Assembly: GCF_003790525.1 (NCBI RefSeq)
Contig: NZ_CP033635.1
From: Escherichia coli
GTDB lineage: Bacteria > Pseudomonadota > Gammaproteobacteria > Enterobacterales > Enterobacteriaceae
Reading direction: 5' to 3' (one strand)
DNA: 64,000 bases
Shown here: positions 483 to 16,742 of the stretch, one piece after another
Position numbering within the stretch: the stretch's first letter is position 1
Layout of the letters: each line of letters begins with the position of its first letter
Translations under genes and position numbers: made by a program
Notes under the pieces: generated by a model
Told to the model about the DNA's origin: nothing
Databases searched by the model: none
The model's input: the letters and a program-made list of their open reading frames with translations, nothing else

Positions 483-491
483 GATGGCACC

Positions 492-953
492 TCACGGGCG
501 TAGCGTCTGCCTGTTGCCGTTGTATTCCAGAATCACACTGTCCGGTGTGATTTGTTCCACCATGAACAGTGTACCGGGTAATGCCTGTCCGGCCCTGACA
601 TCAGTTTCAGTTCCTCCGGGGAGTATGACGCGTGCTGAAAGCTGTGGCTGAATACCAAAGATTTCTTTCAGACGGGGGGATGAAAATGCCTGTGAACCGG
701 AGGAGGTGCCAGCCGCATTTTCCGGCTGATGTCCCGTGACAGAACCGGAAACCGGGGAGATACCCTGTTCCAGTGTCCGCAATTCATGACGAATTTTTTC
801 TCTTGCCAGCATCGCTTCATACAGGGCGGTTTCTTCCTGAATCTGCTCAATCTGCAGTTGTTTGTTCTGTGACGCGTCATTTTCGTTGCCGGCCACTGCC
901 ATTGCCGGTAACAGCAGGGCTGCAATCAGCAGCGCTTTTGTTTTATCGTGCAT
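492..953 (-). CDS. pilP: Type IVB pilus protein PilP-like (signal peptide)
   Basis: ORF 492..1160; likely start at internal Met giving MHDKTKALLIAALLLPAMAVAG signal peptide (about 153 aa); overlaps pilO end; position in operon. Confidence 0.45.
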   Translation of the reverse strand: MHDKTKALLIAALLLPAMAVAGNENDASQNKQLQIEQIQEETALYEAMLAREKIRHELRTLEQGISPVSGSVTGHQPENAAGTSSGSQAFSSPRLKEIFGIQPQLSARVILPGGTETDVRAGQALPGTLFMVEQITPDSVILEYNGNRQTLRP

Positions 954-2241
954 AATATTTACCTGTGAACTGATAACGGAAACGACCATTTTCCAGTTGT
1001 CTTGTGACAGAGAGAAAACGGACAGATGGCTCGCTGAAGCGCTCTGCCAGCTGGTTAGCCGGGAGTAGCGTCTGTATCTGCAGGTCATACTCTTTCCACG
1101 GTGGCTGGATGATGTTTCCGTTTTCATCAGTGAAGCTGTTATTGACTTCCTGCCAGTCAATCTGCAGTTGAACTGACTGTGCGAGCGTGGTCAGTCGTTC
1201 CTGCAGGTCTCGGGTTTCCGGAAGGGAATCAACCGGGACAGGATTATCCGGGAGCCGGAATGTGACCGGCAGTGCAACGCCGCCAGAGTTCCCTTCAGGC
1301 ATAACAATAAACGGCCGGGTGTCTGTGAGTTCAGTGATGCGCCGGATGAAGGCTGTCACTGTCGTGCCTGCTGTATTGGTGTATGAAGACCGCAGATTAC
1401 CGCTGTTACCGTCAGTAGAACATTCAGCCAGGGTATAACGCCATCCGGCAGCAGACAGTGGCGTCTGGTTCCATGTTGTGCTGCATTGCCGGATAAATTC
1501 TCCGCTCTCAGGCTGCCTCGTCCATGGTGGCGTTATACGTGCTTCAGCTGCTTTCCGGGCGCTTTCTTCCCGTTCCGCTTTTTCCGCCTGCCAGATTTCA
1601 TAACGTTGCCAGCCGTACCACGATGCGCCAAGCAGCGTGATGATGAGTAAGGCTGTCATTAACTGTGGGCCTCTGGACACGGGGAGCAGACGCGCTTCTG
1701 CCGGATGCTTTCTGGTGCTGATCAGGTTTGACAGCGGTAGCGGGATACACCGACTGTCTGGTGAAAAACCGTCAGGTTCGTAGCGTACCCAGCCGTTTTC
1801 CGGTTCCGCATTGAGCATCAGGAACGTGTTGCGGGCTTCCGTGATTTCAGTCGGGGTACCGGTAACGTCGTTAACCAGAATGCCATTAATCACCGATACA
1901 AACGCACAGGTGAGTTCAGCGTCGTCGTTCTCGATGATGAAAATGGCATACCCACCTGATTTGAGTAGCGGGCGTATTAACATTGCCAGTGACAGGCACT
2001 GGCGAATGTTACGGGGGATATCTGCATCCTGACGACTGAGCAGGGCAATCATCATTTCATCACCGTTTTCACCGTCGTGGTTGTGGCAGGAAAGATACAG
2101 TTCTGCGCCCTGTGACCGGGCAAACCGCCGGGCATTCCGGTAACCGGGAGGTATGCTCTTCCAGTCAAGGCCCGCAAGGAATGCCTGTTTACCCGATATC
2201 AGTGAAACCGGACGAATTTTTTTCTGCATTGACCCGTTCAA
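943..2241 (-). CDS. pilO: Type IVB pilus biogenesis protein PilO-like
   Basis: 432-aa ORF with one internal hydrophobic segment; size and position between secretin and pilP match R64 PilO (about 431 aa). Confidence 0.5.
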   Translation of the reverse strand: MNGSMQKKIRPVSLISGKQAFLAGLDWKSIPPGYRNARRFARSQGAELYLSCHNHDGENGDEMMIALLSRQDADIPRNIRQCLSLAMLIRPLLKSGGYAIFIIENDDAELTCAFVSVINGILVNDVTGTPTEITEARNTFLMLNAEPENGWVRYEPDGFSPDSRCIPLPLSNLISTRKHPAEARLLPVSRGPQLMTALLIITLLGASWYGWQRYEIWQAEKAEREESARKAAEARITPPWTRQPESGEFIRQCSTTWNQTPLSAAGWRYTLAECSTDGNSGNLRSSYTNTAGTTVTAFIRRITELTDTRPFIVMPEGNSGGVALPVTFRLPDNPVPVDSLPETRDLQERLTTLAQSVQLQIDWQEVNNSFTDENGNIIQPPWKEYDLQIQTLLPANQLAERFSEPSVRFLSVTRQLENGRFRYQFTGKYYAR

Positions 2242-2252
2242 GGGAACCTCCG

Positions 2253-3878
2253 TCAGATTACGTGCGGTGTGATCAGCACAACCAGAATGGTGTCATCGTC
2301 ACCGCTGTCAGTGCCGCCACCCAGCCCGAAGAATGCCGGGCTGCCGACGCCCTGGCGCACGGATTTGCTGCCGGACTGCCGGAATCCGCTGAGAATGACG
2401 GTCTGACCTGATTTCAGGTCGATGGTCTGGTTGATGGTTTTCAGGTCTACCGTGGGCACCTGTGCCCGGCTGCCGCCGCTCTCGAACACCTCAAAGGTGG
2501 GTTTGTCGGAGAGGTTCATGCTGAAGAGCAGCTGCAGGCTGCGCGCATCCGGCTGAATGAACGGCAGCAGGGTCATGTTGAAGCCGGTGGTGATGGTGGC
2601 GGCGTTCAGGGAGGTGCTGGTCCCGACGTTGGCCGTGGTGTCGGTGGTGACACCTTCGATATAGCCCTGCTGGCTGGCCACCTGCATGGGCACCGGCGTC
2701 ATGTTTTTGGTGACGGCGGAGTTCTGTGTGACCACGCTGACGGTGCCCTGACTGGAGAGCGCCTTCAGGAAGGCCTTCGAGCCGGTGAGCTTACCGTCCA
2801 CAATGGAGACGCCACTGGTGATGATGTCATCGGCGGCACTGCTGAATGCCCCTCCCAGCGTGAGGCCGAGACGTCCGTCGCTGAAGACGGCATTCCAGTC
2901 AATGCCGGCCTGGTCACGGCGGGTTTTTCTGACGCTGAGGACTTCCACGTTCAGCACCACCTGACGTCGCATCTCGCGGTTACGTGCCTCCACAAAACGG
3001 CTGACGGTGTCGAGGACCCGAGGGGTGTCGGTGACGGTGAGAAAGCCGGTGGCAAGCACCATCCGGCCGGTCCCGGGGGTCAGCATGGCACCGACGGCAT
3101 TTTTCAGGTCCTCATAGAGGGTGGACTTCATGTCGACCGTGGTGGTCTGGGTGTTGCTGGCCTCCCCGCTGAGGGTGCCGGCGTTACTGCCGGTACTGCT
3201 GCCGGATGAGGAGGAGGCGGTGCCGCTGACCACCCGGGCGTTGTAGGTCACCTGAGAGTCCATGTAGGTGACCGGGAAGGTGCGTGTCTCCAGCCAGTAA
3301 AAGGTGATGGCGCGCCGGTCACTGTCGTAACGGTACGAGATACCGAGCCGGGAGGCGACGGTATCCAGCAGCTGCCGCAGCCCGGTGGCGCTGAGTTCCG
3401 GCAGGACGGCACCGCCGCCCGGGGGGATGACCTGTGCGCCACTGCCGACGGCGGCCAGCGGCACCATGCCGTTCGGGTCCGGTGCGGGGATTGCGCCTGT
3501 CAGCTGCTGTGTGGGGCCGGTGGTGGCCAGCGCCTGCCAGACGTCGGCGGTGATGGTCACGGGGATACCGCAGCTTCCGGTGATGCGCTGGGCTATCTGC
3601 CGCAGGCTGATATCCCGGCGGGTGTTGATGATGATGGGGCAGCCCGGCAGGCTCTGGTGTGCGGGGCTGACGCTGACAGGGGAGGGGTTGATCCACTGTC
3701 GCGTGGTCTCCGTGACCACCGGCCGGGATTTACGGAGTTCGCCCGCGTGCCGGCGCGCTTTCTCCAGTGTGGCGGTGGCGTCTTTTTCCGTGTTGCTGAT
3801 ACGTTCGGCCGTACCGCAGCCTGACAGCAGCAGGGCGACGGCAGTCAGTGGCAGGAGCATGTGTTGTCTTTTTTTCAT
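2253..3878 (-). CDS. pilN: Type IVB pilus secretin lipoprotein PilN-like
   Basis: Start at 3878 gives MKKRQHMLLPLTAVALLLSGC (lipobox LSGC) preceded by an AAGGA RBS; C-terminus ...TILVVLITPHVI is secretin-like; about 541 aa. Confidence 0.7.
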   Translation of the reverse strand: MKKRQHMLLPLTAVALLLSGCGTAERISNTEKDATATLEKARRHAGELRKSRPVVTETTRQWINPSPVSVSPAHQSLPGCPIIINTRRDISLRQIAQRITGSCGIPVTITADVWQALATTGPTQQLTGAIPAPDPNGMVPLAAVGSGAQVIPPGGGAVLPELSATGLRQLLDTVASRLGISYRYDSDRRAITFYWLETRTFPVTYMDSQVTYNARVVSGTASSSSGSSTGSNAGTLSGEASNTQTTTVDMKSTLYEDLKNAVGAMLTPGTGRMVLATGFLTVTDTPRVLDTVSRFVEARNREMRRQVVLNVEVLSVRKTRRDQAGIDWNAVFSDGRLGLTLGGAFSSAADDIITSGVSIVDGKLTGSKAFLKALSSQGTVSVVTQNSAVTKNMTPVPMQVASQQGYIEGVTTDTTANVGTSTSLNAATITTGFNMTLLPFIQPDARSLQLLFSMNLSDKPTFEVFESGGSRAQVPTVDLKTINQTIDLKSGQTVILSGFRQSGSKSVRQGVGSPAFFGLGGGTDSGDDDTILVVLITPHVI

Positions 3879-3940
3879 GCAGAAATCCTTGTGTGAAACG
3901 TGAAAACAGTGAGCAGAGCAGGGAGGGCAGAAGCGCTTCG

Positions 3941-4012
3941 GGACTGAAGTCTGCGCGTGATGGCGATATATCCGCGGGACATGACCGCGGCCGGATATGC
4001 AGACTTCAGTCC
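3941..4012. promoter_or_regulatory. Nested inverted-repeat structure in pilM-pilN intergenic region
   Basis: Perfect 14-bp inverted repeat GGACTGAAGTCTGC (3941-3954) / GCAGACTTCAGTCC (3999-4012) enclosing inner inverted repeat ATATCCG / CGGATAT and CCGCGG palindromes. Confidence 0.5.
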
Positions 4013-4067
4013 ACAGGCTCCTCACACTGTGCGGGACAGCGAAGGTTAACGGTGCAGTGATGTCCCG

Positions 4068-4505
4068 CTAGTTGAAATAAACAAATGCGCTGTCAGGAAT
4101 GACGGACGGCACGCTGATACCGGTGTCCTGACCTGTGGTGTTCAGCAGTCGCCGCCCCTTCACCCGGCCTGCCAGCGCGGTTTTGTGGGTGATGTCTGCC
4201 AGCGCACCTGCAAGCCCCGGGCGGTCATCCTGCCAGACAAAGACCCGCTGTCCGGCGATGATATGGCGGGTACCGTATACCGGGCGGAAACCCGTGGCGG
4301 TGACGGGGAGCGTGCCACCCCCCGTGCGCTCAGCCGGATGGGTGTACAGCCGGTCGTTAATGCCGTTCATGAGGCGGACCATCTCCCACGCACGTTCACG
4401 CATCTCCGCCTGCTCGCTGTACACGGTGACCCGGTGGGTACTGCTGTTGTGAAACCAGGTCAGCGCCACGGTCAGGGCCATGACCAGGGAGAGCGACCAG
4501 CCCAT
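4068..4505 (-). CDS. pilM: Type IVB pilus protein PilM-like
   Basis: Start at 4505 (MGWSLSLVMALTVALTW, N-terminal hydrophobic) lies 2 nt after the pilL stop; 145 aa, same length as R64 PilM. Confidence 0.45.
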   Translation of the reverse strand: MGWSLSLVMALTVALTWFHNSSTHRVTVYSEQAEMRERAWEMVRLMNGINDRLYTHPAERTGGGTLPVTATGFRPVYGTRHIIAGQRVFVWQDDRPGLAGALADITHKTALAGRVKGRRLLNTTGQDTGISVPSVIPDSAFVYFN

Positions 4506-4507
4506 GG

Positions 4508-5233
4508 TCAGTCTCCCGGTCTGTCGCTGACGTGCACCACACACTGCGTGCTGTTGATGGCTGCATACAGCGGCGTCTGTGCGTCCTGATAGAGACGGAA
4601 GAGTTCACTGAGCGCGTGGCGGAACTCGCCGGTGAAATGCAGCGGCGCATCGATGCTGTAATTGAGTCCGGGGTTCTGCCAGGCCAGCTGCCAGGTGCCA
4701 CCGGCCTGACAGGGAACGGCGGCCACCCACTGCTCAAGACCGGCACGCAGCAGGGTTCCGCGGGCAAGAGTCCAGGTGGTCCGTGCATGCGCCGGTTGCG
4801 GCATGTTTGCTGATTTTTCCGCGGTTTTTTCCTGCAGACTGGTGGTGCCCGGGGTGGCCTGAGACGGACTGAACAGGGTGTTCCGCTCAATACGTACATG
4901 CTTCTTCTCCGTGTCGGTGATGGCGCGGAGCTGATATTTTTTCAGCATGCGTTCCGTAACGTAATTCCACTGGTCATTTCCCTTCCATGACACCGTGCGG
5001 GGCGGCCTGACATCCGGTGCAATGTCAAATGTCCATCCCGGCGGTATCAGTTGCTGCATGGCTTTTTTCAGTGATAACCCTTTACCGTCCCGGGGAATAA
5101 ATTTCAGTGCTCCCGGAGCGCTGCTGACCGTGGACGATGAGGGTGCACTGACCTGAGAAGGTGACGGTGCAGCAAAAAGTGGAACAGAAAATGCCAGCAG
5201 CGGCACAATAAGAAGTGGTTTCAGTGGTGTCAT
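4508..5233 (-). CDS. pilL: Type IVB pilus protein PilL-like (secreted)
   Basis: 241-aa ORF with signal peptide MTPLKPLLIVPLLAFSVPLFA; second gene of the minus-strand operon. Confidence 0.45.
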   Translation of the reverse strand: MTPLKPLLIVPLLAFSVPLFAAPSPSQVSAPSSSTVSSAPGALKFIPRDGKGLSLKKAMQQLIPPGWTFDIAPDVRPPRTVSWKGNDQWNYVTERMLKKYQLRAITDTEKKHVRIERNTLFSPSQATPGTTSLQEKTAEKSANMPQPAHARTTWTLARGTLLRAGLEQWVAAVPCQAGGTWQLAWQNPGLNYSIDAPLHFTGEFRHALSELFRLYQDAQTPLYAAINSTQCVVHVSDRPGD

Positions 5234-5285
5234 ATTATGGTCCTGTATCGCACATTTTTTGTGTTTCCTGAGCCTGTATCCGGTT

Positions 5286-5504
5286 TTATTCCGGCTGAAC
5301 TCTGCTGCATGAGAATGCGGTGACGTTCACTTTCACACTGAACGATTTACCGGCCTCTTTTTCTTTTAAAAACAGCCTGACGCATTCAGGCTCAGTCATC
5401 GGTGTGTTCTGAAAACGCACCCAGGATACCGGTGCACCACCAGGCTTCAGGATGGTGGCTTCAATCCGGTATTTATGCGGTGTGGTGTCTGTTGTTGCTG
5501 TCAT
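5286..5504 (-). CDS. Small hypothetical protein (72 aa), first gene of the pil operon
   Basis: ATG at 5504 preceded by AGGAG at about 7 nt; no recognisable domain. Confidence 0.35.
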   Translation of the reverse strand: MTATTDTTPHKYRIEATILKPGGAPVSWVRFQNTPMTEPECVRLFLKEKEAGKSFSVKVNVTAFSCSRVQPE

Positions 5505-5512
5505 TCATGGCT

Positions 5513-5580
5513 CCTGTTGCCGGTTTCCGGTCCCGGAAAAACAGGCGACATCAGCAACAAGGGGAAAAACGCGATGTCGC
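5513..5580. promoter_or_regulatory. Palindrome cluster upstream of pil operon (candidate operator / oriT-related site)
   Basis: CCTGTT...TTTCCGG-TC-CCGGAAA...AACAGG (5513-5545) and 8-bp inverted repeat GCGACATC / GATGTCGC (5545-5580). Confidence 0.35.
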
Positions 5581-6030
5581 CTGAAAGGTACTGGTGCAGC
5601 GGTGCGTTGTACGGACGCAGGTCCGCACAACCGGAAATACACGGGATGATTCGGTCAGTGTATTTTCGTGTTGTGCGCCTGTACTGATACGGCAGGGTGT
5701 GATGAGTGTTACCTGTGGCTGCAGGCGCGGCACGTCACTCATAACGTAGCATTCTGTTTCCTCCTCAGCCCGGCTTCAGGGCGTTGCCGCAATACCCGAT
5801 TGTTAAAGAGCCTTACCGGCATGGTGTCCGGTGTCACCGCGCGGATAACGATACGGCGGTGTCTGAAGGGATGATGCTGCGGCGCTCTGCACATGGCGAC
5901 GATTAATTCTTTTTGTGTTTCTGAAAATTTATTGCCGGGAAATTTCTGGTGTGACAGGGTGAATTAATTCTGGTCAGCGACGCTCCTGAGAAGGCAGAGT
6001 GCGCTGACATTTCGTGAACGGAGGAATGCC

Positions 6031-7539
6031 ATGTCCCTGAATCCCACCGATGAACAGTCAGCCATCATTCACTGGCAGGGGGAAAAACTGGTGGTGAATG
6101 CCTTTGCCGGTACAGGCAAAACCAGCACACTGGTGCAGTTCGCCGCAGCCTGCCCTGAGAGCCGGATGCTGTATCTGGCCTATAACCGCGCGATTCGTGA
6201 TGAGGCGGAGCGCCGGTTTCCCTTTAATGTGGAGTGCAAAACCTCCCATCAGCTGGCGTATTCGCGGTTCGGAAAGCATTTCCGGCATCGTCTGGTGCCG
6301 GGGCTGTCAGTGACGGATGTAGCGAGAAAACTGAACACCCGCTACTGGACGCTTGCCCGTGTTGCCATGACCGCGCTGAATCAGTTCATCTGTTCGGCGG
6401 ACGTGGCGCCCGGAATGCAGCATATGCCGCCTCCCGACGAGATGAAGGGCATGTCGCCACAGGATGCGCTGCGTGCCGTGCAGATCCTCTGGCATGAAAT
6501 GAGCAATCCGGATGGCAATTTTCCGGTCACTCACGACACCTATCTGAAGCTCTATCAGCTTTCCTCACCGGATCTGTCACGCAGGTGGGATACGATCCTT
6601 TTTGATGAGGCCCAGGATGCGAATCCGGTGACGTCCGCACTGGTGCTGGGGCAGCGGTGCAGGGTGGTACTGGTTGGCGACCGTTACCAGCAGATTTATC
6701 GTTTTCGTGGTGCCAGCGATGCACTGTCGCATCCGGCACTGAACGGGGCGGACCGTCTCTGGCTGACGCAAAGTTTTCGTTTTGGTCCTGCCGTGGCCGG
6801 GGTGGCCAGCCAGTTACTGAAGCGTGCCGGCGAGAGCCGTGAGGTGACCGGCAGGGGCGGGGATGATGAAGTGCTGACGGCAGGTGAAATGCGTGCGCGC
6901 GTGAAGGCAGGGAAGATGACCGGTCACAGGGCGATACTGAGCCGGACGGTGGCCGGTGTGATTGGCACGGCACTGATGGCGGCAATGCGTGGCAGGAAGG
7001 TTTACTGGGTGGGGGGCATTGAAGGCTACAGAACGGAAGCACTGGAAGATCTTTACTGGTTTCAGATGGACATGCCGGAGCGGATGCACAGTGACAGACT
7101 GCGAAAGGACTACCGGAGTTTTGACGAGTACCGTCATATTGCGAAGGTGACGAAGGATGTGGAAATGAATCAGTCCATTCGTCTGCTGGAGCTGTGCTTT
7201 CCGCTGCCGAAGAAACTCGAACTTCTCAGAAAGCACACCGTCACGAATGAACAGGAGGCGGATATCACGGTCTCAACGGCACACCGCAGTAAGGGACTGG
7301 AGTGGGCACTGGTGATACTCGATGATGATTTTCAGGATATCACCGACCCGCTGATAAGCGAGCAGGAGCGGCGTGATGAAACCAATCTGCTCTATGTGGC
7401 GGTCACCCGGGCGCGCAGAACGCTGGTTCTCAATGAGCTCATGCAGCAACTGACGGAAGCTGCCGGCGATGGTGGTGCACCCGGAAACGCGCCGGTGCAG
7501 GGGAAGGAAGACGATGGCGTGGAGGGAGAGGATGTTTAA
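6031..7539 (+). CDS. SF1 (UvrD/Rep-like) DNA helicase
   Basis: 502-aa ORF; Walker A AFAGTGKTS; ILFDEAQD Walker B-like; C-terminal VSTAHRSKGLEW and LLYVAVTRAR motifs typical of UvrD_C; GGAGGAA RBS before the ATG. Confidence 0.75.
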   Translation: MSLNPTDEQSAIIHWQGEKLVVNAFAGTGKTSTLVQFAAACPESRMLYLAYNRAIRDEAERRFPFNVECKTSHQLAYSRFGKHFRHRLVPGLSVTDVARKLNTRYWTLARVAMTALNQFICSADVAPGMQHMPPPDEMKGMSPQDALRAVQILWHEMSNPDGNFPVTHDTYLKLYQLSSPDLSRRWDTILFDEAQDANPVTSALVLGQRCRVVLVGDRYQQIYRFRGASDALSHPALNGADRLWLTQSFRFGPAVAGVASQLLKRAGESREVTGRGGDDEVLTAGEMRARVKAGKMTGHRAILSRTVAGVIGTALMAAMRGRKVYWVGGIEGYRTEALEDLYWFQMDMPERMHSDRLRKDYRSFDEYRHIAKVTKDVEMNQSIRLLELCFPLPKKLELLRKHTVTNEQEADITVSTAHRSKGLEWALVILDDDFQDITDPLISEQERRDETNLLYVAVTRARRTLVLNELMQQLTEAAGDGGAPGNAPVQGKEDDGVEGEDV

Positions 7540-9157
7540 GCGGTTCAGACGTATGCTGCCCGGCACAAAGGTCACGGAGCCAGGCGTGGTCGCGCCGGTG
7601 ATACCGGCAGGGTTTTATGCGCCGCTCACAGCAGAAGCACTGTTATCACCAGAGCACAGGGAACTGAGGCTCAGGCAGGTATGGGATAACAATCCGATGC
7701 CCCGTGATGTATACGACAGGATGTGCCTTGCGCCACTCAGCCGGCTGTTGCTGAACACCCAGAATGTGCCGGCAACACGGGAAGGACGGTGGTCCCGTGC
7801 CGGTGGATTTGGTGATCTGACGGTACTGTACACCACGTATGCCGTTCGTCTGGCAAGAGGGTACATGTTTCCACCGGATGCGACCCCGGAAGACCAGGCG
7901 GCTCAGGCCGCAGTCTGGCATACGGTGATTTTCTGGTCAGCGCTGTTTTACCACCTGCCCCTGCTGGCGCACCTTGAGGGGGAGCTGCTGAGTGGTCGGG
8001 GCTGGCAGCCAGGGATTTCTGTGCCTGACGAACCTTTCCGTTTCCGGTTCAGGAAGACGGCGCCGCAGGGCACGGAAGCGCAACAACTGGCGGCCCTGAC
8101 TGCCGGCACGCTGTTACCGGACGGCGCAACGGCCTGGCTTGTGACGGCGCCGGGGGCGCTGCAGAATCTGGCCGGGGCGCTCTGGCATCAGCATCCCGGG
8201 ATGGCGCTGATTCGTGATGTGCTGCAGGAAGCGGCAAGGCAGACAGAGAGTCCGCTGAATACCTGCGCTGTCACTGCGCCGGTTACTGCGGAGGCTTCAG
8301 CAGACATCCGTCCTGCTGACCCGGTGGTGACCGGCAGCACGGACAGTGTGATGGCAGTCACTGAGGTGCAGCCGGCAGAGGAGGTGAAGACTGAGAGCGT
8401 GCAGACAGAGACTGAAGGTGGTGGTGAGTCCGCCGGAGCGTCAGAGGTGCCGTCCGCACAGCAGGAACTGACGGTTCAGACAGCGCCAGTGGTGACGGCA
8501 GATGATGAAGCGGTCAGTGCTTCTCCTGCGGATCAGGACACAGCAATGCTGCTGAGTCTTTTTTCAGCAGATGAGTCCGAAACTGCTGAACGGGATAATG
8601 GGGATGTGGTGATGCTGGCTGATGAGGAAGAAGCGCAGGATCTCACCGATGGACCGGATGAAGGCGATTCGTCTCCGGGCAGTATTCATGAATCGCCGTA
8701 TCTGGTGGAGAGTGACGCGTCGGTTAATCAGTCCGTATCCGGGGAATACCGCGCAACAGAAGTGAATCCGCTTACCGGAGATGATCCTGATTTAAAGGGA
8801 GAGACGTTTTTGGACTGGCTTAAAGCAGGGCTGAACAGTGGTGAGATATCATTTAACCAGAAAGGCGACAAAATACACATTGTTGCAGGACTGGTTTTCC
8901 TGCCGGTACCAGGCATTTTCTTTGATTACCTGAAAGCAGTGCAGCTTCCCGGGGACAAACGCCCGATTGTTCAGTCATCATTTGAGCGGCTCTGTATCAA
9001 TAAACGCCGTGATGACCAGCGTTTTTATTTTGCTCGTATTGCTGAGGAACCCGGGAACTGTGCACGTTACAAAACAGTCAAAGGTTACCTGGTCAAAGGA
9101 CGTAGTCTGATGCATGAAAGTAAACTGAAAGACAGTCCTTATCTTTTTATTTCGTGA
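7514..9157 (+). CDS. Putative conjugative relaxase (TraI_2 / MOBH-like) with acidic low-complexity linker
   Basis: ORF 7469..9157; start chosen at ATG 7514 (AAGGAAG RBS), overlapping helicase stop; C-terminal segment (IHIVAGLVFLPVPGIFFDYLK...) resembles TraI_2_C; family assignment is from memory. Confidence 0.5.
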   Translation: MAWRERMFKRFRRMLPGTKVTEPGVVAPVIPAGFYAPLTAEALLSPEHRELRLRQVWDNNPMPRDVYDRMCLAPLSRLLLNTQNVPATREGRWSRAGGFGDLTVLYTTYAVRLARGYMFPPDATPEDQAAQAAVWHTVIFWSALFYHLPLLAHLEGELLSGRGWQPGISVPDEPFRFRFRKTAPQGTEAQQLAALTAGTLLPDGATAWLVTAPGALQNLAGALWHQHPGMALIRDVLQEAARQTESPLNTCAVTAPVTAEASADIRPADPVVTGSTDSVMAVTEVQPAEEVKTESVQTETEGGGESAGASEVPSAQQELTVQTAPVVTADDEAVSASPADQDTAMLLSLFSADESETAERDNGDVVMLADEEEAQDLTDGPDEGDSSPGSIHESPYLVESDASVNQSVSGEYRATEVNPLTGDDPDLKGETFLDWLKAGLNSGEISFNQKGDKIHIVAGLVFLPVPGIFFDYLKAVQLPGDKRPIVQSSFERLCINKRRDDQRFYFARIAEEPGNCARYKTVKGYLVKGRSLMHESKLKDSPYLFIS

Positions 9158-9210
9158 GTGGAGGGGAGGCTATTATTGCAGGAATGTGAATGAAATGTAA
9201 AAGGTAATCA

Positions 9211-10200
9211 ATGAAAATAAATAATGCGGATAAGTGCTGGAATGATTTGATGGATGAGTTTTTTTTCTGCCGTTCAGTACGTGAAGCTACGGAGTGGAGC
9301 TACAGAAAGGTGCTGAACGGATTCCGTAAGTTTGTTGGCGGGACTCTGTTACCGGAAGATATCCGACAACAACATGTCAGGGAGTGGCGACGGGAGGTCC
9401 TGAAAAACCAGAAACGTTCAACTCATACATGGAACAACAAGGTACGCCATATGCGCGCTATCTTCAGTTTTGCTTCCTCATCTGAACTCCTGCATTTAAG
9501 TTGTAACCCGTTTGAGGGTATGAGCGTCAGACAGGAAAAGAAACGCAAAAAAACACTGACCCGGAAACAAATAAAACGCATCCTGCTGGTCCTTGAGCAG
9601 TTTCAGGAGGATGAAATGAACCTGAAGATGCACTGGAAGTGCGCCATTCGTCCGGCCTGGTACTGGATTATTGTGGTTAACACACTTCGCTTTACGGGGA
9701 TGAGGCTGAATCAGCTGCTGCATCTGCGCCTGCGGGATGTTAATCCTGAAGAACGGTGGATTGATTTATGCTCTGAAGGCAGCAAGACACATCATGAGTG
9801 GCGGATCCCGATGGTCAGTCATCTGGTTCCGGGGATAACCAGGCTGATGGATGAAGCGGTGAAACGTGGAGCCACGCCTGATGATTATCTTTTCCACTAT
9901 CATCGCTATGCTTTGCCTGTGTCTGAAGCATTATCGGTGAGCGGACCTCCGGAAGAGCAGAAGGTCAAAGGTTTTTTCCGGCGTCTGTCGAAAGAGTGTG
10001 GTTTTCAGGTATCTGCACATCGTTTCAGACACACTCTGGCAAGTACTCTGATGGCGGCACCGGAACGAAATCTGTACATGGTGAAAACCATGCTGGGTCA
10101 CCGGAATGTTTCAACGACACTGGAATATGTGGAGATGGATCTGAAGGGAACAGCACGTATACTTGAGGCCGAACTGTCAAAACTGACAGACGATCTTTAA
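9211..10200 (+). CDS. int: Tyrosine recombinase / integrase (329 aa)
   Basis: RBS AAGGTAA; catalytic-looking residues in LRFTGMR, HRFRHT, GHRNVSTT and LEYVE (R, H-x-x-R, H, Y); adjacent to tRNA-Phe 3' end. Confidence 0.85.
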   Translation: MKINNADKCWNDLMDEFFFCRSVREATEWSYRKVLNGFRKFVGGTLLPEDIRQQHVREWRREVLKNQKRSTHTWNNKVRHMRAIFSFASSSELLHLSCNPFEGMSVRQEKKRKKTLTRKQIKRILLVLEQFQEDEMNLKMHWKCAIRPAWYWIIVVNTLRFTGMRLNQLLHLRLRDVNPEERWIDLCSEGSKTHHEWRIPMVSHLVPGITRLMDEAVKRGATPDDYLFHYHRYALPVSEALSVSGPPEEQKVKGFFRRLSKECGFQVSAHRFRHTLASTLMAAPERNLYMVKTMLGHRNVSTTLEYVEMDLKGTARILEAELSKLTDDL

Positions 10201-10396
10201 TCAGGTGATTGCTTACAGTTGTTGACAACATGAAAAACCGTTGCAATCATAATGAATGATCGAGAAAGGGAGCATGCGACCAACATGCTCCCCAATCGAG
10301 AAAATGAGATGGCATGACCTAGACTCACGACATCTTGCACCTTCCCGATGACACCCGTCAGGGTTCTCACTCCTGACCAGTGGCTTTGATGTAAGG

Positions 10397-10472
10397 TGGT
10401 GCCCGGAGGCGGAATCGAACCACCGACACGGGGATTTTCAATCCCCTGCTCTACCGACTGAGCTATCCGGGC
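10397..10472 (-). tRNA. pheV: tRNA-Phe (GAA), pheV locus, variant T-stem
   Basis: Reverse complement reads GCCCGGATAGCTCAGTCGGTAGAGCAGGGGATTGAAAATCCCCGTGTCGGTGGTTCGATTCCGCCTCCGGGCACCA; matches E. coli tRNA-Phe except four compensatory T-stem changes. Confidence 0.9.
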
Positions 10473-10577
10473 AACGGGGCGCATTAAACCTGATTCGCCT
10501 CGTCTCGTCAATCAAATTTCTTCAATTTACTGCAGACTGCACAATCTATCATCACTTTGCCGCTATTGCACGCATTG

Positions 10578-11306
10578 TCAGGCAAACCAGGCGGTCCAGG
10601 CGGCGGAAAGCGGCATTGCCAGAAGGAGTGCTGGAAGCATGTTGACCACCGGGAACATTTTAATGCCACAGATGCGTAATCCGGTTGCCAGCAGCAATAA
10701 ACCGCCTACGGCGCTGAAGTCTGCCATCATCGACGGTGTGGTCAGCGGTAATATCAGCGCGGCAGCCCACGCCAGTGTTAACTGGATGATCAGTAATGGA
10801 ATGCTAATCACCGACACCGCAATACCCAGCGAGCAGGCGAAGATCATCGCCGTAAAGAAATCGAGAAATGACTTGGCGATTAAAATACTCGGATCGCCGG
10901 TCATCCCTTCGTTCATCGCCCCGAAGATCCCGGTGCCGCTGGCGCAAAACAGGACAATAATCGCGACATAATTCTGAATAAAAGATTCATGCGCTGGCTT
11001 CTTAGGTGAGTGGCGAAACAGATTTTGTGCTTTGGTGACCGCGGTATTGACCCCTTTTTCCAGCAGACACATTTCGCCGATTAATGCACCGAGTAAGGTT
11101 GCTAAAACCATCGCCGGAAGGTTGGCGCATTTCACCACCAGTAAAATACCAATCCCCAGCGATGCCAGACCAAAAATTGATGTCATGGAGACGCGGATAC
11201 GTTCCGGTAAGCGTTGACTAAGGAGTGCACCGAGAACGCCACCCAGTAATACTGCACTTGCGTTGATAAAAGGACCGATGACCACAAGAGTTCCTGTTAG
11301 CTGCAT
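10578..11306 (-). CDS. yqgA: DUF554 inner membrane protein YqgA
   Basis: 242-aa polytopic membrane ORF next to pheV as in K-12. Confidence 0.85.
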   Translation of the reverse strand: MQLTGTLVVIGPFINASAVLLGGVLGALLSQRLPERIRVSMTSIFGLASLGIGILLVVKCANLPAMVLATLLGALIGEMCLLEKGVNTAVTKAQNLFRHSPKKPAHESFIQNYVAIIVLFCASGTGIFGAMNEGMTGDPSILIAKSFLDFFTAMIFACSLGIAVSVISIPLLIIQLTLAWAAALILPLTTPSMMADFSAVGGLLLLATGLRICGIKMFPVVNMLPALLLAMPLSAAWTAWFA

Positions 11307-11677
11307 TGTCTGATTTTCTTATTATGACCGTTTGGCTCCTTCGATGGCTTGTTTGTTCGCAAAGTCCTGGCTTGCACGCTCTGGTGAAAGGTGCCATGAT
11401 TGCGCGAATTTTCTCCTCTCTGTACGGAGTTTGCCCGATGCACGCCACCTCCTTACATTCTCTCGCTTATCGCCGTTTCGCGCGAAACTCCTCCCTTTTT
11501 CTGCTCATGCGGTGAGGTTAACGCACGCTCACTGCAGGACAACAGTAAAATCAGAGCGTTTCTGCTTTTACTGATGTCTGGCGGTCGGAGCTGGTGACCA
11601 GTTTGACCCATATCTCGTGGGGCAGGGTTTTTCACCTTGTCCGGTATTCTTACTTCCCCGAAACGGGTTTTGCGCTT

Positions 11678-13813
11678 ATGAAATCAATGAATATTGCCGC
11701 CAGTAGTGAACTGGTATCCCGACTTTCTACTCATCGCCGCGTGGTGGCGTTGGGAGATACTGATTTTACGGACGTCGCGGCAGTCGTCATTACCGCTGCG
11801 GATAGTCGCAGTGGCATTCTTGCGTTGCTTAAGCGCACCGGTTTTCATCTACCGGTGTTTTTGTATTCCGAACATGCTGTTGAATTACCTGCGGGCGTTA
11901 CGGCGGTAATTAACGGCAACGAGCAGCAGTGGCTGGAGCTGGAATCCGCAGCCTGTCAGTATGAAGAGAATTTGCTGCCACCGTTTTATGACACGCTGAC
12001 GCAGTACGTTGAGATGGGTAATAGCACCTTTGCTTGCCCTGGGCATCAACATGGTGCGTTCTTTAAAAAGCATCCTGCCGGACGCCATTTTTACGATTTC
12101 TTTGGTGAGAACGTCTTTCGCGCCGATATGTGTAACGCTGACGTAAAATTGGGCGATCTGCTTATTCATGAAGGATCGGCGAAAGATGCGCAGAAATTCG
12201 CAGCCAAAGTCTTTCATGCCGATAAAACCTATTTTGTGCTGAACGGCACATCGGCAGCGAATAAAGTGGTGACGAATGCGCTGTTAACGCGTGGCGATCT
12301 GGTGCTCTTCGACCGTAACAACCATAAGTCGAATCATCACGGCGCGCTGATTCAGGCGGGGGCGACGCCGGTCTATCTGGAAGCTTCACGTAACCCGTTT
12401 GGTTTCATTGGCGGTATTGATGCGCACTGTTTTAATGAAGAGTATCTGCGCCAGCAAATTCGCGACGTTGCGCCAGAAAAAGCCGACCTGCCGCGCCCGT
12501 TTCGCCTGGCGATTATTCAGCTGGGAACCTATGACGGCACTGTCTATAACGCCCGTCAGGTGATCGATACCGTTGGGCATCTGTGTGATTACATTCTGTT
12601 TGATTCCGCATGGGTCGGTTACGAACAGTTTATCCCGATGATGGCGGATAGCTCGCCGCTGCTGTTAGAACTTAACGAAAACGATCCGGGGATCTTTGTG
12701 ACCCAGTCGGTGCACAAACAGCAGGCGGGATTCTCACAGACGTCGCAGATCCATAAAAAAGATAACCATATCCGTGGACAGGCGCGTTTTTGCCCGCATA
12801 AGCGGTTGAATAATGCCTTTATGCTCCATGCTTCTACCAGCCCGTTCTATCCGCTGTTCGCCGCGCTGGACGTTAACGCCAAAATTCATGAAGGGGAGAG
12901 TGGGCGTCGGCTGTGGGCGGAGTGCGTTGCGTTGGGGATTGAAGCCCGGAAGGCGATTCTTGCGCGCTGTAAGCTGTTCCGCCCGTTTATCCCGCCCGTT
13001 GTTGATGGCAAATTGTGGCAGGATTATCCGACGTCAGTGTTAGCCAGCGACCGCCGTTTTTTCAGTTTTGAGCCGGGGGCGAAGTGGCACGGCTTTGAAG
13101 GATATGCCGCGGATCAGTATTTTGTTGATCCGTGCAAGCTGTTACTCACCACGCCGGGTATCGATGCCGAAACCGGCGAATATAGCGATTTTGGCGTTCC
13201 GGCGACGATTCTGGCGCACTATCTGCGTGAGAACGGCATTGTGCCGGAGAAGTGCGATCTCAATTCCATTCTGTTCTTATTAACTCCGGCGGAAAGCCAC
13301 GAGAAGCTGGCACAACTGGTGGCGATGCTGGCGCAGTTTGAACAGCATATTGAGGATGACTCGCCGCTGGTTGAGGTGTTGCCGAGCGTTTATAACAAAT
13401 ATCCGGTGCGTTATCGCGACTACACCCTGCGCCAGTTGTGTCAGGAGATGCACGATCTGTATGTCAGTTTCGACGTCAAAGACCTACAAAAAGCGATGTT
13501 CCGCCAGCAGAGTTTCCCGTCAGTGGTGATGAATCCCCAGGATGCGCATAGCGCTTATATTCGCGGTGAAGTGGAGTTGGTGCGGATTCGTGATGCCGAA
13601 GGGCGAATTGCGGCAGAAGGGGCGTTACCTTATCCACCTGGCGTGCTTTGCGTGGTACCCGGGGAAGTCTGGGGTGGGGCGGTTCAACGTTATTTCCTTG
13701 CACTGGAAGAAGGGGTGAATTTGTTGCCGGGATTTTCGCCGGAGCTGCAAGGTGTCTATAGCGAAACCGATGCGGATGGCATGAAACGGTTGTACGGTTA
13801 TGTGTTGAAGTAA
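11678..13813 (+). CDS. speC: Ornithine decarboxylase, constitutive
   Basis: 711 aa from MKSMNIAASSELV...; ORF-track start at 11594 is an upstream extension. Confidence 0.95.
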   Translation: MKSMNIAASSELVSRLSTHRRVVALGDTDFTDVAAVVITAADSRSGILALLKRTGFHLPVFLYSEHAVELPAGVTAVINGNEQQWLELESAACQYEENLLPPFYDTLTQYVEMGNSTFACPGHQHGAFFKKHPAGRHFYDFFGENVFRADMCNADVKLGDLLIHEGSAKDAQKFAAKVFHADKTYFVLNGTSAANKVVTNALLTRGDLVLFDRNNHKSNHHGALIQAGATPVYLEASRNPFGFIGGIDAHCFNEEYLRQQIRDVAPEKADLPRPFRLAIIQLGTYDGTVYNARQVIDTVGHLCDYILFDSAWVGYEQFIPMMADSSPLLLELNENDPGIFVTQSVHKQQAGFSQTSQIHKKDNHIRGQARFCPHKRLNNAFMLHASTSPFYPLFAALDVNAKIHEGESGRRLWAECVALGIEARKAILARCKLFRPFIPPVVDGKLWQDYPTSVLASDRRFFSFEPGAKWHGFEGYAADQYFVDPCKLLLTTPGIDAETGEYSDFGVPATILAHYLRENGIVPEKCDLNSILFLLTPAESHEKLAQLVAMLAQFEQHIEDDSPLVEVLPSVYNKYPVRYRDYTLRQLCQEMHDLYVSFDVKDLQKAMFRQQSFPSVVMNPQDAHSAYIRGEVELVRIRDAEGRIAAEGALPYPPGVLCVVPGEVWGGAVQRYFLALEEGVNLLPGFSPELQGVYSETDADGMKRLYGYVLK

Positions 13814-13815
13814 GA

Positions 13816-13853
13816 ATAAAAAAACGGGTCACCTTCTGGCGACCCGTTTTTCT
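13816..13853. terminator. Bidirectional rho-independent terminator (speC / nupG)
   Basis: A-run, stem CGGGTC / GACCCG with 10-nt loop, then TTTTTC. Confidence 0.75.
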
Positions 13854-13861
13854 TTGCGTAA

Positions 13862-15118
13862 TTAGTGGCTAACCGTCTGTGTACCTGTCGGGACACGAAC
13901 GTGTTTATATTTGAACATCGCCATGAACGCGAAGGCCAGAACCACGGAGTAACCTGCGAAAATCAGCCATACGGTCTGCCAGTCGGTAATGCCGTTTTGG
14001 GTGTACATCTCAACCACTTTACCGCTCACGATGCCGCCGAGGATACAGCCGAAGCCGTTGGTCATCATCAGGAACATCCCCTGCGCGCTGGCGCGAATTG
14101 CCGGGCTAACTTCTTTTTCGACAAACACCGAACCAGAGATGTTGAAGAAGTCGAATGCGCAACCGTAAACGATCATCGACAGTACCAGCAGTACAGTACC
14201 GAACGGAGTCGGGTCGCCGTAAGCAAACAGAGCAAAACGCAGGATCCACGCCACAATACTGATCATCATTACGTTCTTAATACCGTAGCGGCTTAAGAAG
14301 AACGGGATGGTCAGAATGAACAGGGTTTCAGAGATCTGTGAAATCGACATGATGATTGACGCATGCTGCACGATGAAGCTGCTGGCAAACATCGGATCTT
14401 TGTCGAAGCTGTGCAGGAAGGTATTACCGAACATGTTGGTAATCTGCAGTTCCGCGCCCAGCAGCATTGAGAAGATGAAGAAGATTGCCATACGCTTGTT
14501 TTTAAACAGCGCGAATGCATCGAGGCCCAGCAGGGTTGTCCAGCTCTGATTCGCTTGCTGTTTAGCAACCGGAATATGCGGCAGAGTCAGGGTAAACAGA
14601 ACCAGAACGGCGGAAAGGGCTGCGCCAATATACAGCTGCATGTGGCTTAATTCGAAGCCAGACAGGCTCACCACCCACATTGCCATGATAAAGCCGATGG
14701 TGCCCCAGATACGGATTGGCGGGAAGTCAGTAACGATATCCATCCCGGCATTTTGCAGGCGATAGTAAGAGATGGTGTTGATTAACCCAAGCGTTGGCAT
14801 ATAAGCAAACGAGTTAATCAATATCACAAGGAACATCGCTTCCGGCGTCGTGACCTGTGCCGCCATGAACAGCGTGATAGCGCCAATGGTGTGGCAAATG
14901 GCATATACCCATTTCGCACTTAACCATTTGTCGGCCACAATCCCCAGCAGCGCAGGCATAAAGACCGCGGCGATACCCAGTGAACTATAAACTGCGCCAA
15001 TAGAAGCACCGTCAAACTTCAGGGTAACAAACATATAGGAGCCGAGGGTCGTCAGCCAACTTCCCCACAGACAGAACTGCAGAAAAGAGAGGATTTTCAG
15101 CTGCAGCTTAAGATTCAT
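13862..15118 (-). CDS. nupG: Nucleoside:H+ symporter NupG
   Basis: 418 aa from MNLKLQLKILSFLQF...; MFS topology. Confidence 0.95.
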   Translation of the reverse strand: MNLKLQLKILSFLQFCLWGSWLTTLGSYMFVTLKFDGASIGAVYSSLGIAAVFMPALLGIVADKWLSAKWVYAICHTIGAITLFMAAQVTTPEAMFLVILINSFAYMPTLGLINTISYYRLQNAGMDIVTDFPPIRIWGTIGFIMAMWVVSLSGFELSHMQLYIGAALSAVLVLFTLTLPHIPVAKQQANQSWTTLLGLDAFALFKNKRMAIFFIFSMLLGAELQITNMFGNTFLHSFDKDPMFASSFIVQHASIIMSISQISETLFILTIPFFLSRYGIKNVMMISIVAWILRFALFAYGDPTPFGTVLLVLSMIVYGCAFDFFNISGSVFVEKEVSPAIRASAQGMFLMMTNGFGCILGGIVSGKVVEMYTQNGITDWQTVWLIFAGYSVVLAFAFMAMFKYKHVRVPTGTQTVSH

Positions 15119-15319: not shown

Positions 15320-16426
<1,107 letters not shown>

Positions 16427-16463
16427 TTATGCAAGTTGCCGGAGGCGTGCTCCGGCACTGTTT

Positions 16464-16742
<279 letters not shown>

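What the first reader, a model, noticed from the sequence alone, without database searches (positions are those of the whole stretch)
9211..10200. Small integrase oriented convergently with the tRNA, atypical for pheV islands
The recombinase is only 329 aa, XerC/D-sized, and is transcribed toward the tRNA 3' end. P4-type integrases common at E. coli tRNA islands are about 400-420 aa. Together with the MOBH-like relaxase this suggests a less common element family at this site.
Basis: inference. Interest (0 to 1): 0.4.

Follow-up and report, generated by a model that had tools for sequence, protein, structure and literature searches.

The report
Integrase of ICEEc2/SPI-7-type conjugative element
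This is the small, Xer-like integrase that inserts a known family of self-transmissible genomic islands (ICEEc2/SPI-7/PAPI-1 type) into the phenylalanine tRNA genes of E. coli; it is uncommon at this site but has already been described.

Summary
Window 9211-10200 (+) encodes a 329-aa tyrosine recombinase, and 196 bp downstream lies tRNA-Phe (10397-10472, -) of the pheV locus, so the two genes converge. The protein has only the core-binding and catalytic domains. It falls far below the XerC/XerD model cut-offs and lacks the arm-binding domain of P4-type island integrases. It is the last gene of a helicase-TraI(MOBH)-int module at the right end of an SPI-7/PFGI-1-type integrative conjugative element. 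Published work calls this integrase class "IntKX" (ICEEc2, PAPI-1, ICESb2). The identical protein sits in an E. coli ICE (CH4804 ICE 2) that was observed to transfer. The int-toward-tRNA-Phe layout is the family norm: 51 of 73 assessable species-representative loci have it, and no other tRNA type was found. The pheV gene here is a hybrid whose 3' half comes from the ICE. This places strand exchange in the anticodon stem-loop or variable region. The class occurs in about 2% of complete E. coli genomes, so it is atypical at pheV but not new. In passing I found, in the int-tRNA spacer, an invariant outward-facing promoter motif and two hairpins supported by covariation.

The parts
9211..10200 (+). 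int: 329-aa simple (two-domain) tyrosine recombinase of the IntKX class. Catalytic residues are R165, K192, H270, R273, H297 and Y306.
   Evidence: ORF; Pfam; NCBIfam Xer models far below cut-off. The catalytic residues are invariant in 70 homologues. The AF2 model has pLDDT 84.5 and shows a 4-helix N-domain, a linker and a catalytic domain. Best PDB matches are XerA, Tn1549 Int(82-397), IntI and lambda Int(75-356), none with an arm domain.
7532..9157 (+). traI: MOBH-type ICE relaxase (PFGI-1 class), directly upstream of int on the same strand. A longer ORF from 7469 is possible.
   Evidence: TIGR03760 scores 193 bits, above the 161 cut-off. RefSeq annotates a TraI-domain protein. traI lies directly upstream of int in 61/73 family loci.
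6031..7539 (+). UvrD-like helicase, first gene of the helicase-traI-int module.
   Evidence: The same order is found in Klebsiella, Salmonella, Yersinia and E. coli relatives.
492..5233 (-). Type IVb conjugative pilus genes (pilP, pilO2, pilN, pilM, pilL-like) of the ICE. The ICE continues beyond the left edge of the window.
   Evidence: The ORF ends coincide with RefSeq features of AR_0089 at an offset of 11001. The ICE segment 1-10480 is 99.6% identical to AR_0089.
10222..10250 (+). Outward-facing sigma-70 promoter-like site (P_out): TTGACA, 17-bp spacer, TG, AATCAT. It points from the int end toward the attachment site.
   Evidence: Homologous sites were found in L006 and L005. In 32/32 family loci with the conserved anchor, the -35 is exactly TTGACA, the spacer is 17 bp, TG is present and the -10 reads NAnnAT. 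Function is inferred.
10262..10292 (.). Hairpin A (GGGAGCATG 10268-10276 / CATGCTCCC 10284-10292). On the - strand it is followed by TTTCTC (10262-10267), which is terminator-like for read-through from tRNA-Phe. On the + strand it lies at about +11 to +35 of a P_out transcript.
   Evidence: RNAalifold and pair counts on 27 spacers: 6 of 10 pairs show double changes. The G.U bias favours the tRNA-sense strand 12 to 3. The MFE fold includes it. The simple terminator scan did not flag it.
10352..10382 (.). Hairpin or inverted repeat B (CACCCGTCAGG / CCTGACCAGTG), ending 14 nt from the tRNA 3' end, on the ICE arm of the attachment site.
   Evidence: 4 of 10 pairs show compensatory changes and 98.5% of cells are paired. 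G.U pairs occur only on the tRNA-sense strand, 34 to 0.
10397..10446 (.). Attachment-site repeat, corresponding to tRNA positions 27-76. This copy carries the ICE-borne 3' half, with differences from native pheV at 10408, 10409, 10423 and 10424. The 22 bp at 10425-10446, identical in both copies, contain the crossover.
   Evidence: Alignment with empty K-12 pheV and with the parA-side repeat in AR_0089.
10397..10472 (-). Hybrid tRNA-Phe(GAA) gene (pheV): 5' part chromosomal, 3' part from the ICE. T-stem pairs 49-65 and 50-64 are changed compensatorily.
   Evidence: ARAGORN; Rfam 69.1 bits; cloverleaf fold and differing positions.
10578..11306 (-). yqgA, the chromosomal flank that identifies the site as pheV. 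It is not part of the element.

Best explanation
The ORF is the integrase of an integrative conjugative element of the SPI-7/ICEEc2 (PAPI-1/pKLC102, MPF_G, MOBH) family, inserted in pheV. It is a simple tyrosine recombinase with core-binding and catalytic domains only and no arm-binding domain. Published work names this class IntKX. It recombines an ICE-borne copy of the last 50 nt of tRNA-Phe (attP) with the same stretch of a chromosomal tRNA-Phe gene (attB; pheV or pheU). Strand exchange lies in the anticodon stem-loop or variable-loop segment, so the ICE replaces the 3' half of the tRNA and the gene stays intact. The int gene is the last gene of a helicase-traI-int module at the element's end and therefore reads toward the tRNA. 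Shown here: domain content, intact catalytic residues, conserved synteny and target, the hybrid tRNA, and attP-type junctions in relatives. Taken from the literature: family integrases are required for excision (ICEKp2 Int2a), and an ICE carrying the identical protein transfers. Inferred: catalysis by this copy, the exact cleavage positions, and a reaction without an excisionase.
For: Domains and catalytic residues. Not XerC/D: 64.6 and 69 bits against cut-offs of 335 and 330. ICE context: in 100%-identical DNA of strain AR_0089 the element runs about 78 kb from parA to int. It carries an SPI-7-type dnaB, STY4528/STY4534 replication proteins, topB, TIGR037xx MPF_G genes, traD, a type IVb pilus with shufflon, and iha cargo. 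Conserved layout: helicase>traI>int> <tRNA-Phe is found in Klebsiella, Salmonella, Yersinia and E. coli relatives. In the wider survey, 51/73 assessable species-representative loci have it and no other tRNA type appears. Attachment site: a 50-bp repeat occurs at both ends. The native E. coli 3' half sits at the parA end and a variant half with two compensatory T-stem pairs sits next to int. This bounds the crossover to 10425-10446. int>tRNA-half>parA junctions (attP or tandem copies) occur in six relatives. Mobility: the same protein, WP_001696146.1, is in CH4804 ICE 2 at pheU, which appears in recipient hybrids (PMC13127887). The same allele is found at both pheV and pheU. Literature: the IntKX subgroup comprises PAPI-1, ICESb2 and ICEEc2 integrases, and no Xis was found in 15 such ICEs (PMC8138268). 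ICEKp2 excision needs Int2a (PMC6761156). ICEPan XerC acts at tRNA-Phe (PMC4458695).
Against: No experiment on this copy exists. Only the right-hand 10.4 kb of the ICE lies in the window, so completeness of the element in this strain is unknown. Identity to the type ICEEc2 integrase (ADI47013) could not be measured because neither the sequence nor the paper was retrievable. E. coli carries three diverged alleles (100%, 81% and 64% amino-acid identity), and I do not know which one ICEEc2 carries. 16 of 73 family loci show no tRNA-Phe after int, and this was not explained. The helicase and TraI in the window differ from the AR_0089/CH4804 proteins by 3 and 5 residues.
Confidence: 0.92

Rival explanations
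1. It belongs to the integrase family, but in this strain the element is a fixed, no longer mobile remnant, so int is functionally idle.
For: Only 10.4 kb of the element is visible in the window. The AR_0089 copy has a pseudogenised lytic transglycosylase and a partial DUF7446 gene. ICEKp2 excises but transfers poorly.
Against: Int is 100% identical to the copy in a transferring ICE, and all catalytic residues are intact. The ICE segment is 99.6% identical across strains, whereas the chromosome flank is about 98% identical, which suggests recent horizontal spread. The allele occurs at both pheV and pheU.
Confidence: 0.1
2. It is a Xer-type resolvase, either a paralogue of XerC/XerD or a multimer-resolution enzyme for the circular ICE, and not the integrase.
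For: Its size is Xer-like, and the best sequence and structure matches are XerA, XerD and XerC.
Against: Scores are 5-fold below the Xer equivalog cut-offs. The gene always sits beside the tRNA-Phe junction at the ICE end. The only other recombinase genes annotated within the parA-to-int span are an Rci-like recombinase beside pilV (by position the shufflon recombinase) and an Integrase_1-domain protein; the P4-type int belongs to the neighbouring island beyond the far-end repeat. Family members are needed for excision.
Confidence: 0.03
3. It is a truncated or decayed P4-type island integrase that has lost its N-terminal arm-binding domain.
For: P4-type integrases are the rule at pheV. One lies beyond the far end of the ICE in AR_0089.
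Against: There is no Phage_int_M or Arm-DNA-bind_3 signal. Hundreds of full-length 325-345-aa homologues start at the same position. The model shows a complete two-domain fold.
Confidence: 0.01
4. The int belongs to a separate small integrative module that happens to sit between the ICE and pheV, not to the ICE itself.
For: Tandem arrays at pheV do occur: in AR_0089 the ICE lies next to a P4-int island.
Against: traI lies directly upstream in 61/73 loci across many genera. There is no extra att repeat between traI and int. In attP-type junctions int is joined directly to parA of the same element type.
Confidence: 0.02

Closest known systems
ICEEc2 integrase (E. coli BEN374; IntKX subgroup, accession ADI47013; Roche et al. 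2010)
   Same: E. coli host, tRNA-Phe (pheU/pheV) target, and a pKLC102/PAGI-2/SPI-7-type ICE. Both have a type IV pilus and a module of DNA-mobility enzymes. The recombinase complement is also similar (IntKX plus an Rci-like recombinase plus others).
   Different: Percent identity is unknown because the sequence was not retrievable. The cargo here (iha in AR_0089) may differ.
ICE 2 of E. coli CH4804 (PMC13127887)
   Same: The integrase protein is identical (WP_001696146.1). The DNA from 5000 to 10480 is 99.4% identical. It has the same ICE-borne tRNA half and was observed in transconjugant hybrids.
   Different: It is inserted at pheU rather than pheV, and it carries a resistance cassette (aadA1, sat2, dfrA1).
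ICEKp2 Int2a, ICEPan XerC1/2, and SPI-7/YAPI/HAI2-type integrases of Enterobacterales
   Same: 41-55% identity and the same length class. They share the helicase-traI-int order, the convergent tRNA-Phe, and the conserved spacer elements.
   Different: They have different hosts and cargo. The ICE-borne tRNA half varies among them.
PAPI-1/pKLC102 integrase (Pseudomonas)
   Same: Placed by the literature in the same IntKX subgroup and the same ICE superfamily. [quoted passage not shown]
   Different: It targets tRNA-Lys. It was not compared by sequence here.
XerC/XerD/XerA chromosome-dimer resolvases
   Same: Same two-domain architecture, the same catalytic residues, and the closest solved structures.
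   Different: Scores are far below the family cut-offs. This protein is encoded on a mobile element, acts on a tRNA gene rather than dif, and probably works as a single recombinase species.
P4-type integrases of GI-pheV (intP4)
   Same: Same target gene (the pheV 3' end) and the same catalytic superfamily.
   Different: They are about 420 aa with an arm-binding domain and a central domain. They are transcribed in the same direction as the tRNA and supply a canonical terminator right after the tRNA.
Pcirc of ICEclc
   Same: An outward-facing promoter at an element end that gains a target gene only after circularisation, analogous to the P_out proposed here.
   Different: In ICEclc the promoter sits at the end opposite int and drives int. 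Here it sits next to int and would drive parA.

Membership tests
IntKX subgroup of simple tyrosine recombinases (Roche 2010; Smyshlyaev 2021) | Two-domain recombinase (core-binding plus catalytic) with no arm-binding domain | tested here: met
   Pfam hits are limited to SAM-like and Phage_integrase domains. In the AF2 model the whole chain aligns to arm-less constructs.
IntKX subgroup of simple tyrosine recombinases (Roche 2010; Smyshlyaev 2021) | Complete R-K-H-R-H-Y catalytic set | tested here: met
   R165, K192, H270, R273, H297 and Y306 are present. All are invariant in the 11-sequence alignment; in 70 homologues all but H270 are invariant, and H270 is conserved in at least 90%.
IntKX subgroup of simple tyrosine recombinases (Roche 2010; Smyshlyaev 2021) | Encoded on a gammaproteobacterial ICE with an MPF_G conjugation system | tested here: met
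   RefSeq annotates TIGR037xx/PFL_4669-type genes in the identical element. In the window, TraI matches TIGR03760 above the cut-off.
IntKX subgroup of simple tyrosine recombinases (Roche 2010; Smyshlyaev 2021) | Assignment by the authors' subgroup HMM, or clustering with named members (ADI47013, CAX68194, CAF29071) | not testable with these tools
   Neither the profiles nor those sequences are available here. Accession look-ups did not surface them.
IntKX subgroup of simple tyrosine recombinases (Roche 2010; Smyshlyaev 2021) | No associated excisionase (Xis/RDF) | tested here: inconclusive
   No excisionase or AlpA-type gene is annotated in the 78-kb element. Small ORFs were not searched with profiles.
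SPI-7/ICEEc2 family of ICEs | Integration into the 3' end of a tRNA-Phe gene, with a direct repeat of that end at the far boundary | tested here: met
   A 50-bp repeat is present with the native half at the parA end. tRNA-Phe follows int in 51/73 relatives.
SPI-7/ICEEc2 family of ICEs | parA-dnaB-parB maintenance module, type IVb pilus with shufflon, MOBH TraI, and integrase at the opposite end from parA | tested here: met
   All are present in the identical element of AR_0089. The pilus, helicase, traI and int parts lie in the window.
SPI-7/ICEEc2 family of ICEs | Excision to a circle and conjugative transfer | not testable with these tools
   The evidence is indirect only: the identical int is in CH4804 ICE 2, which was seen in recipients, and attP-type junctions occur in relatives.
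XerC/XerD chromosome dimer resolvases | Score above the NCBIfam equivalog cut-off | tested here: not met
   XerD scores 69.0 against 329.6, XerC 64.6 against 335.2, and XerA 89.5 against 220.
P4-type island integrases (intP4) | N-terminal Arm-DNA-bind_3 domain plus Phage_int_M central domain, about 400-420 aa | tested here: not met
   Both domains are absent here and present in the neighbouring 420-aa pheV-island integrase of AR_0089.

The most novel reading that the evidence does not exclude
The 196-bp int-tRNA spacer may be a conserved control region that explains why int can sit head-on against a strongly transcribed tRNA gene. It contains three elements. (i) An invariant outward promoter (TTGACA-17-TGnNAnnAT in 32/32 relatives) that points uselessly into the tRNA while the element is integrated. 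After excision it would be fused across attP to parA/soj, giving circle-specific expression of the maintenance module. (ii) An ICE-supplied hairpin plus U-tract that stops tRNA-Phe read-through before it runs antisense into int, replacing the displaced native pheV terminator. (iii) A second covarying hairpin next to the core site, of unknown role. As far as I could check, none of these elements has been described for the enterobacterial family.
Probability: 0.45. Interest if true: 0.35.

Novelty: already known. Interest (0 to 1): 0.2.

Why it matters
The result settles what occupies pheV in this strain. It is not the usual P4-integrase pathogenicity island but a self-transmissible ICE of the SPI-7/ICEEc2 family. 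Recent work links this kind of element to Hfr-like mobilisation of large chromosome segments and to the formation of hybrid, drug-resistant E. coli clones (PMC13127887). For annotation, a roughly 330-aa "XerC/D-like" gene that reads toward tRNA-Phe and is preceded by a MOBH traI is a reliable marker of this ICE family and of its right boundary. The spacer elements, if confirmed, would give a testable model for circle-specific parA expression and for insulation of int from tRNA transcription.

Tried and rejected
- The three primary papers could not be read: Roche 2010 on ICEEc2, Seth-Smith 2012 on the SPI-7 family, and Qiu 2006 on PAPI-1 are not held. I relied on citing papers and on a supplement that gives the ICEEc2 integrase accession, ADI47013.
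- I tried to link that accession to one of the three E. coli alleles through cluster look-ups, without success.
- A sequence search of the PDB gave only weak XerA hits, so I used a predicted structure instead.
- Rfam has no family for the spacer hairpins.
- The simple terminator scan does not flag hairpin A in the window or in two relatives. The terminator reading therefore rests on covariation, strand-specific G.U pairs and the conserved T-rich tail.
- In the window alone, the promoter count is not above chance (3 found against 3.4 expected). The promoter claim rests only on cross-family invariance.
- I rejected the readings as a Xer resolvase, a truncated P4 integrase, and a separate small integrative module; see the rival explanations.
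- The 16 of 73 relatives without a tRNA-Phe after int were not followed up.

Full report
**Observation.** RefSeq annotates the same CDS in identical DNA of other strains. It is a real tyrosine recombinase gene. Pfam Phage_integrase matches at E=4e-20 over residues 115-309, and weak SAM-like core-binding hits cover residues 16-98. The only tRNA in the window is tRNA-Phe(GAA) at 10397-10472 on the - strand (Rfam tRNA 69 bits). Its 3' end faces the int stop codon across 196 bp, so the genes converge. The flank yqgA-speC-nupG identifies the site as pheV.

**What the protein is.** It reaches only 65-90 bits on the XerC, XerD and XerA equivalog models, whose cut-offs are 220-335 bits. It is therefore Xer-like in architecture but not a Xer resolvase. 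In an alignment of 70 homologues, R165, K192, R273, H297 and Y306 are invariant, and H270 is conserved in at least 90% of sequences. An AlphaFold model built on that alignment (pLDDT 84.5) shows three parts: a four-helix N-terminal domain, a basic unstructured linker at about residues 91-117, and the catalytic domain. The best PDB matches are XerA, Tn1549 Int(82-397), IntI and lambda Int(75-356). All of these are arm-less or truncated to the same two domains. By contrast, the P4-type integrase beside the pheV remnant in strain AR_0089 is 420 aa and carries Arm-DNA-bind_3 and Phage_int_M domains.

**What element it belongs to.** Upstream on the same strand lie a UvrD-like helicase (6031-7539) and a MOBH-type relaxase (7532-9157). 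The relaxase matches TIGR03760, the PFGI-1-class ICE TraI, at 193 bits against a cut-off of 161. Further left are type IVb pilus genes.
- The window's first 10480 bases are 99.6% identical to E. coli AR_0089.
- In AR_0089 the whole element can be read as about 78 kb from parA to int. It carries an SPI-7-type dnaB, parB, STY4528/STY4534 replication proteins, topoisomerase III, ssb, the TIGR037xx/PFL_4669 MPF_G transfer genes, traD, a pil operon with shufflon and Rci, and iha as cargo.
- This is the SPI-7/ICEEc2 branch of the PAPI-1/pKLC102/ICEHin1056 superfamily.
- The literature names the integrase class IntKX. It was defined by Roche et al. 2010 and includes the integrases of PAPI-1, ICESb2 and ICEEc2. 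It is associated with MPF_G systems, and no excisionase was found in 15 such ICEs (PMC8138268).
- ICEEc2 itself targets pheU/pheV in E. coli (PMC11537424; PMC6761156).

**Direct link to a mobile element.** The integrase protein is identical (WP_001696146.1) to the one in ICE 2 of clinical strain CH4804. That ICE is integrated at pheU beside dicD-dsbD. The source paper lists it as 99.9 kb with iha, hra and a resistance cassette, and shows it in recipient hybrids (PMC13127887). The same allele occurs in about 25 complete genomes at pheV and at least four at pheU. The ICE segment is 99.6% identical between the window and AR_0089, whereas the adjoining chromosome is only about 98% identical. This is as expected for horizontal spread.

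**Prevalence.** 36 of 5426 complete E. coli genomes carry this int plus junction at 80% coverage or more, 31 of them at 99% identity or more. 127 genomes (2.3%) carry any detectable relative. Three diverged E. coli alleles exist, at 100%, 81% and 64% amino-acid identity. By comparison, an intP4 island occupies pheV in about 52% of genomes (PMC11537424). "Atypical at pheV" is therefore correct as a statement of frequency.

**The convergent layout is the family rule.** The order helicase>traI>int> followed by <tRNA-Phe about 180-200 bp later recurs in Klebsiella (pheU side), Salmonella (pheV side), Yersinia and the 64% E. coli allele at both sites. A scan of one genome per species returned 80 loci, of which 73 had enough downstream sequence to assess.
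- 51 have a complete tRNA-Phe(GAA) on the opposite strand within 600 bp.
- 6 have only the tRNA 3' half.
- 16 have neither.
- No other tRNA type was found.
- traI lies directly upstream in 61.

**How integration works, as read from the sequence.** The last 50 nt of the tRNA (positions 27-76; window 10397-10446) are repeated at the far, parA end of the ICE in AR_0089.
- The far copy is identical to the empty K-12 pheV.
- The copy beside int differs at four positions (10408, 10409, 10423, 10424). These convert T-stem pairs 49-65 and 50-64 from C-G and U-A to G-C and G-C.
- pheV is therefore a hybrid gene: the 5' part is chromosomal and the 3' part is ICE-borne. It is still scored as a good tRNA.
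- Strand exchange must lie in the 22 bp that are identical in both copies (10425-10446). This stretch is the anticodon stem-loop plus variable loop, the classic site where the stem arms serve as inverted core sites around a 7-nt loop. That last step is inference from general knowledge of tRNA-targeting integrases.
- Other family members carry other variant halves.
- In six relatives int is followed by the tRNA half and then parA on the same strand. This is the attP junction of a circle or of tandem copies.

**Tandem arrangement in AR_0089.** Beyond the far repeat in AR_0089 sit a P4-type integrase and a classical pap/tia island. The ICE thus inserted between pheV and a resident GI-pheV.

**Spacer elements (noticed in passing).** The int-tRNA spacer is not a neutral gap. 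Three conserved elements were found.
1. Promoter-like site. A sigma-70-like site at 10222-10250 (TTGACA, 17 bp, TG, AATCAT) points toward the att site. It is unremarkable in isolation, since 3 sites were found against 3.4 expected by chance. However, the same site was found in Salmonella and Klebsiella relatives. In 32 of 32 loci with the conserved downstream anchor, the -35 is exactly TTGACA, the spacer is exactly 17 bp, TG is present, and the -10 keeps A2 and T6. This holds although the integrases are only 41-81% identical and the -35 sometimes lies inside the int coding end. After excision this promoter would face parA across attP. [quoted passage not shown]
2. Two hairpins. RNAalifold predicts hairpins at 10268-10292 (A) and 10352-10382 (B) on 27 aligned spacers. 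Ten of the 20 pairs show compensatory double changes. 96.5% of cells are paired, against 36-53% when partners are slid. There are 57 double-change cells against 17 in shuffles, reached in 0 of 500 shuffles.
3. Strand bias. G.U pairs are valid almost only on the tRNA-sense strand (46 against 3). On that strand hairpin A is followed by a conserved TTTTCTCGATC (TTTCTC in the window). The spacer folds with z=-5.2 on that strand.

**Interpretation of the spacer elements.** The native pheV and the P4-type island each place a canonical terminator within about 10 nt of the tRNA end. No canonical terminator is flagged at the ICE junction. My reading is that hairpin A terminates tRNA read-through and shields the convergent int. 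This is an inference: the simple scan does not call it a terminator, and hairpin A could instead, or also, be a 5' stem-loop of the P_out transcript. Rfam has no matching family.

**Verdict.** The gene is a small Xer-like integrase of a different and less common element family at pheV. That family is well known, the identical protein sits in a published transferring ICE, and the convergent orientation is its standard design. Novelty is "already known" and interest is low. The only possibly new material is the conserved promoter and hairpin architecture of the spacer, which needs transcript mapping to test. What I could not do was measure identity to the type ICEEc2 integrase or read the three primary papers.

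Noticed in passing
window 10222-10250 (+): An outward-facing promoter motif lies just after the int stop codon: TTGACA, 17 bp, TG, AATCAT. In 32/32 family loci with the conserved anchor the -35, the spacer length, the TG and -10 positions A2/T6 are invariant. After excision the promoter would face parA across attP.
   Followed up: partly
window 10262-10292 and 10352-10382: Two hairpins in the int-tRNA spacer are supported by covariation, and their G.U pairs are valid almost only on the tRNA-sense strand. Hairpin A is followed on that strand by a conserved T-rich tail. It may be an ICE-supplied terminator for tRNA-Phe that shields int. There is no Rfam match.
   Followed up: partly
window 10397-10472 (differences at 10408, 10409, 10423, 10424): pheV is a hybrid tRNA gene. 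Its 3' half is ICE-derived and carries two compensatory T-stem pair changes relative to native E. coli tRNA-Phe. The same variant half appears next to Klebsiella, Pluralibacter, some Xenorhabdus/Photorhabdus and Pantoea stewartii family integrases.
   Followed up: yes
L003 28619-30221 (E. coli AR_0089, far end of the same ICE): A tandem arrangement is present. The ICE sits between pheV and a classical P4-integrase GI-pheV (pap, tia, and resistance transposons further on). RefSeq annotates the chimeric att remnant at L003 30079-30156 as 'tRNA-Ser', but ARAGORN finds no tRNA there. It is the native pheV 3' half fused to ICE sequence.
   Followed up: partly
L008 6024-6340; also L042, L049, L056, L064, L089: In six relatives (Pectobacterium, Erwinia, Xenorhabdus) int is followed by only the tRNA-Phe 3' half and then parA on the same strand. 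This is an attP-type junction inside assembled contigs, implying circular/plasmid-like forms or tandem ICE copies.
   Followed up: partly
L004 (E. coli CH4804) versus the window; one search hits H105-H108: The identical integrase allele and junction sequence occur at both pheV (about 25 complete genomes, mostly poultry isolates) and pheU (at least 4 genomes). One allele therefore uses both tRNA-Phe genes.
   Followed up: partly
L026, L029, L033, L035, L037, L041, L048, L052, L053, L055, L061, L063, L067, L072, L082, L086: Sixteen family integrase loci have no tRNA-Phe, and no recognisable half, within 600-700 bp downstream. They may use other target sites, have diverged att sites, or have been rearranged. 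Several Xenorhabdus genomes carry two or three family integrases.
   Followed up: no
window 1-10480 versus 10481-29843, compared with L001: The ICE segment is 99.6% identical to AR_0089 (Int 0, TraI 5 and helicase 3 amino-acid differences), while the adjoining chromosome is only about 98% identical. The 39 ICE mismatches cluster in the helicase 3' half and the traI 5' half (6969-8522).
   Followed up: partly
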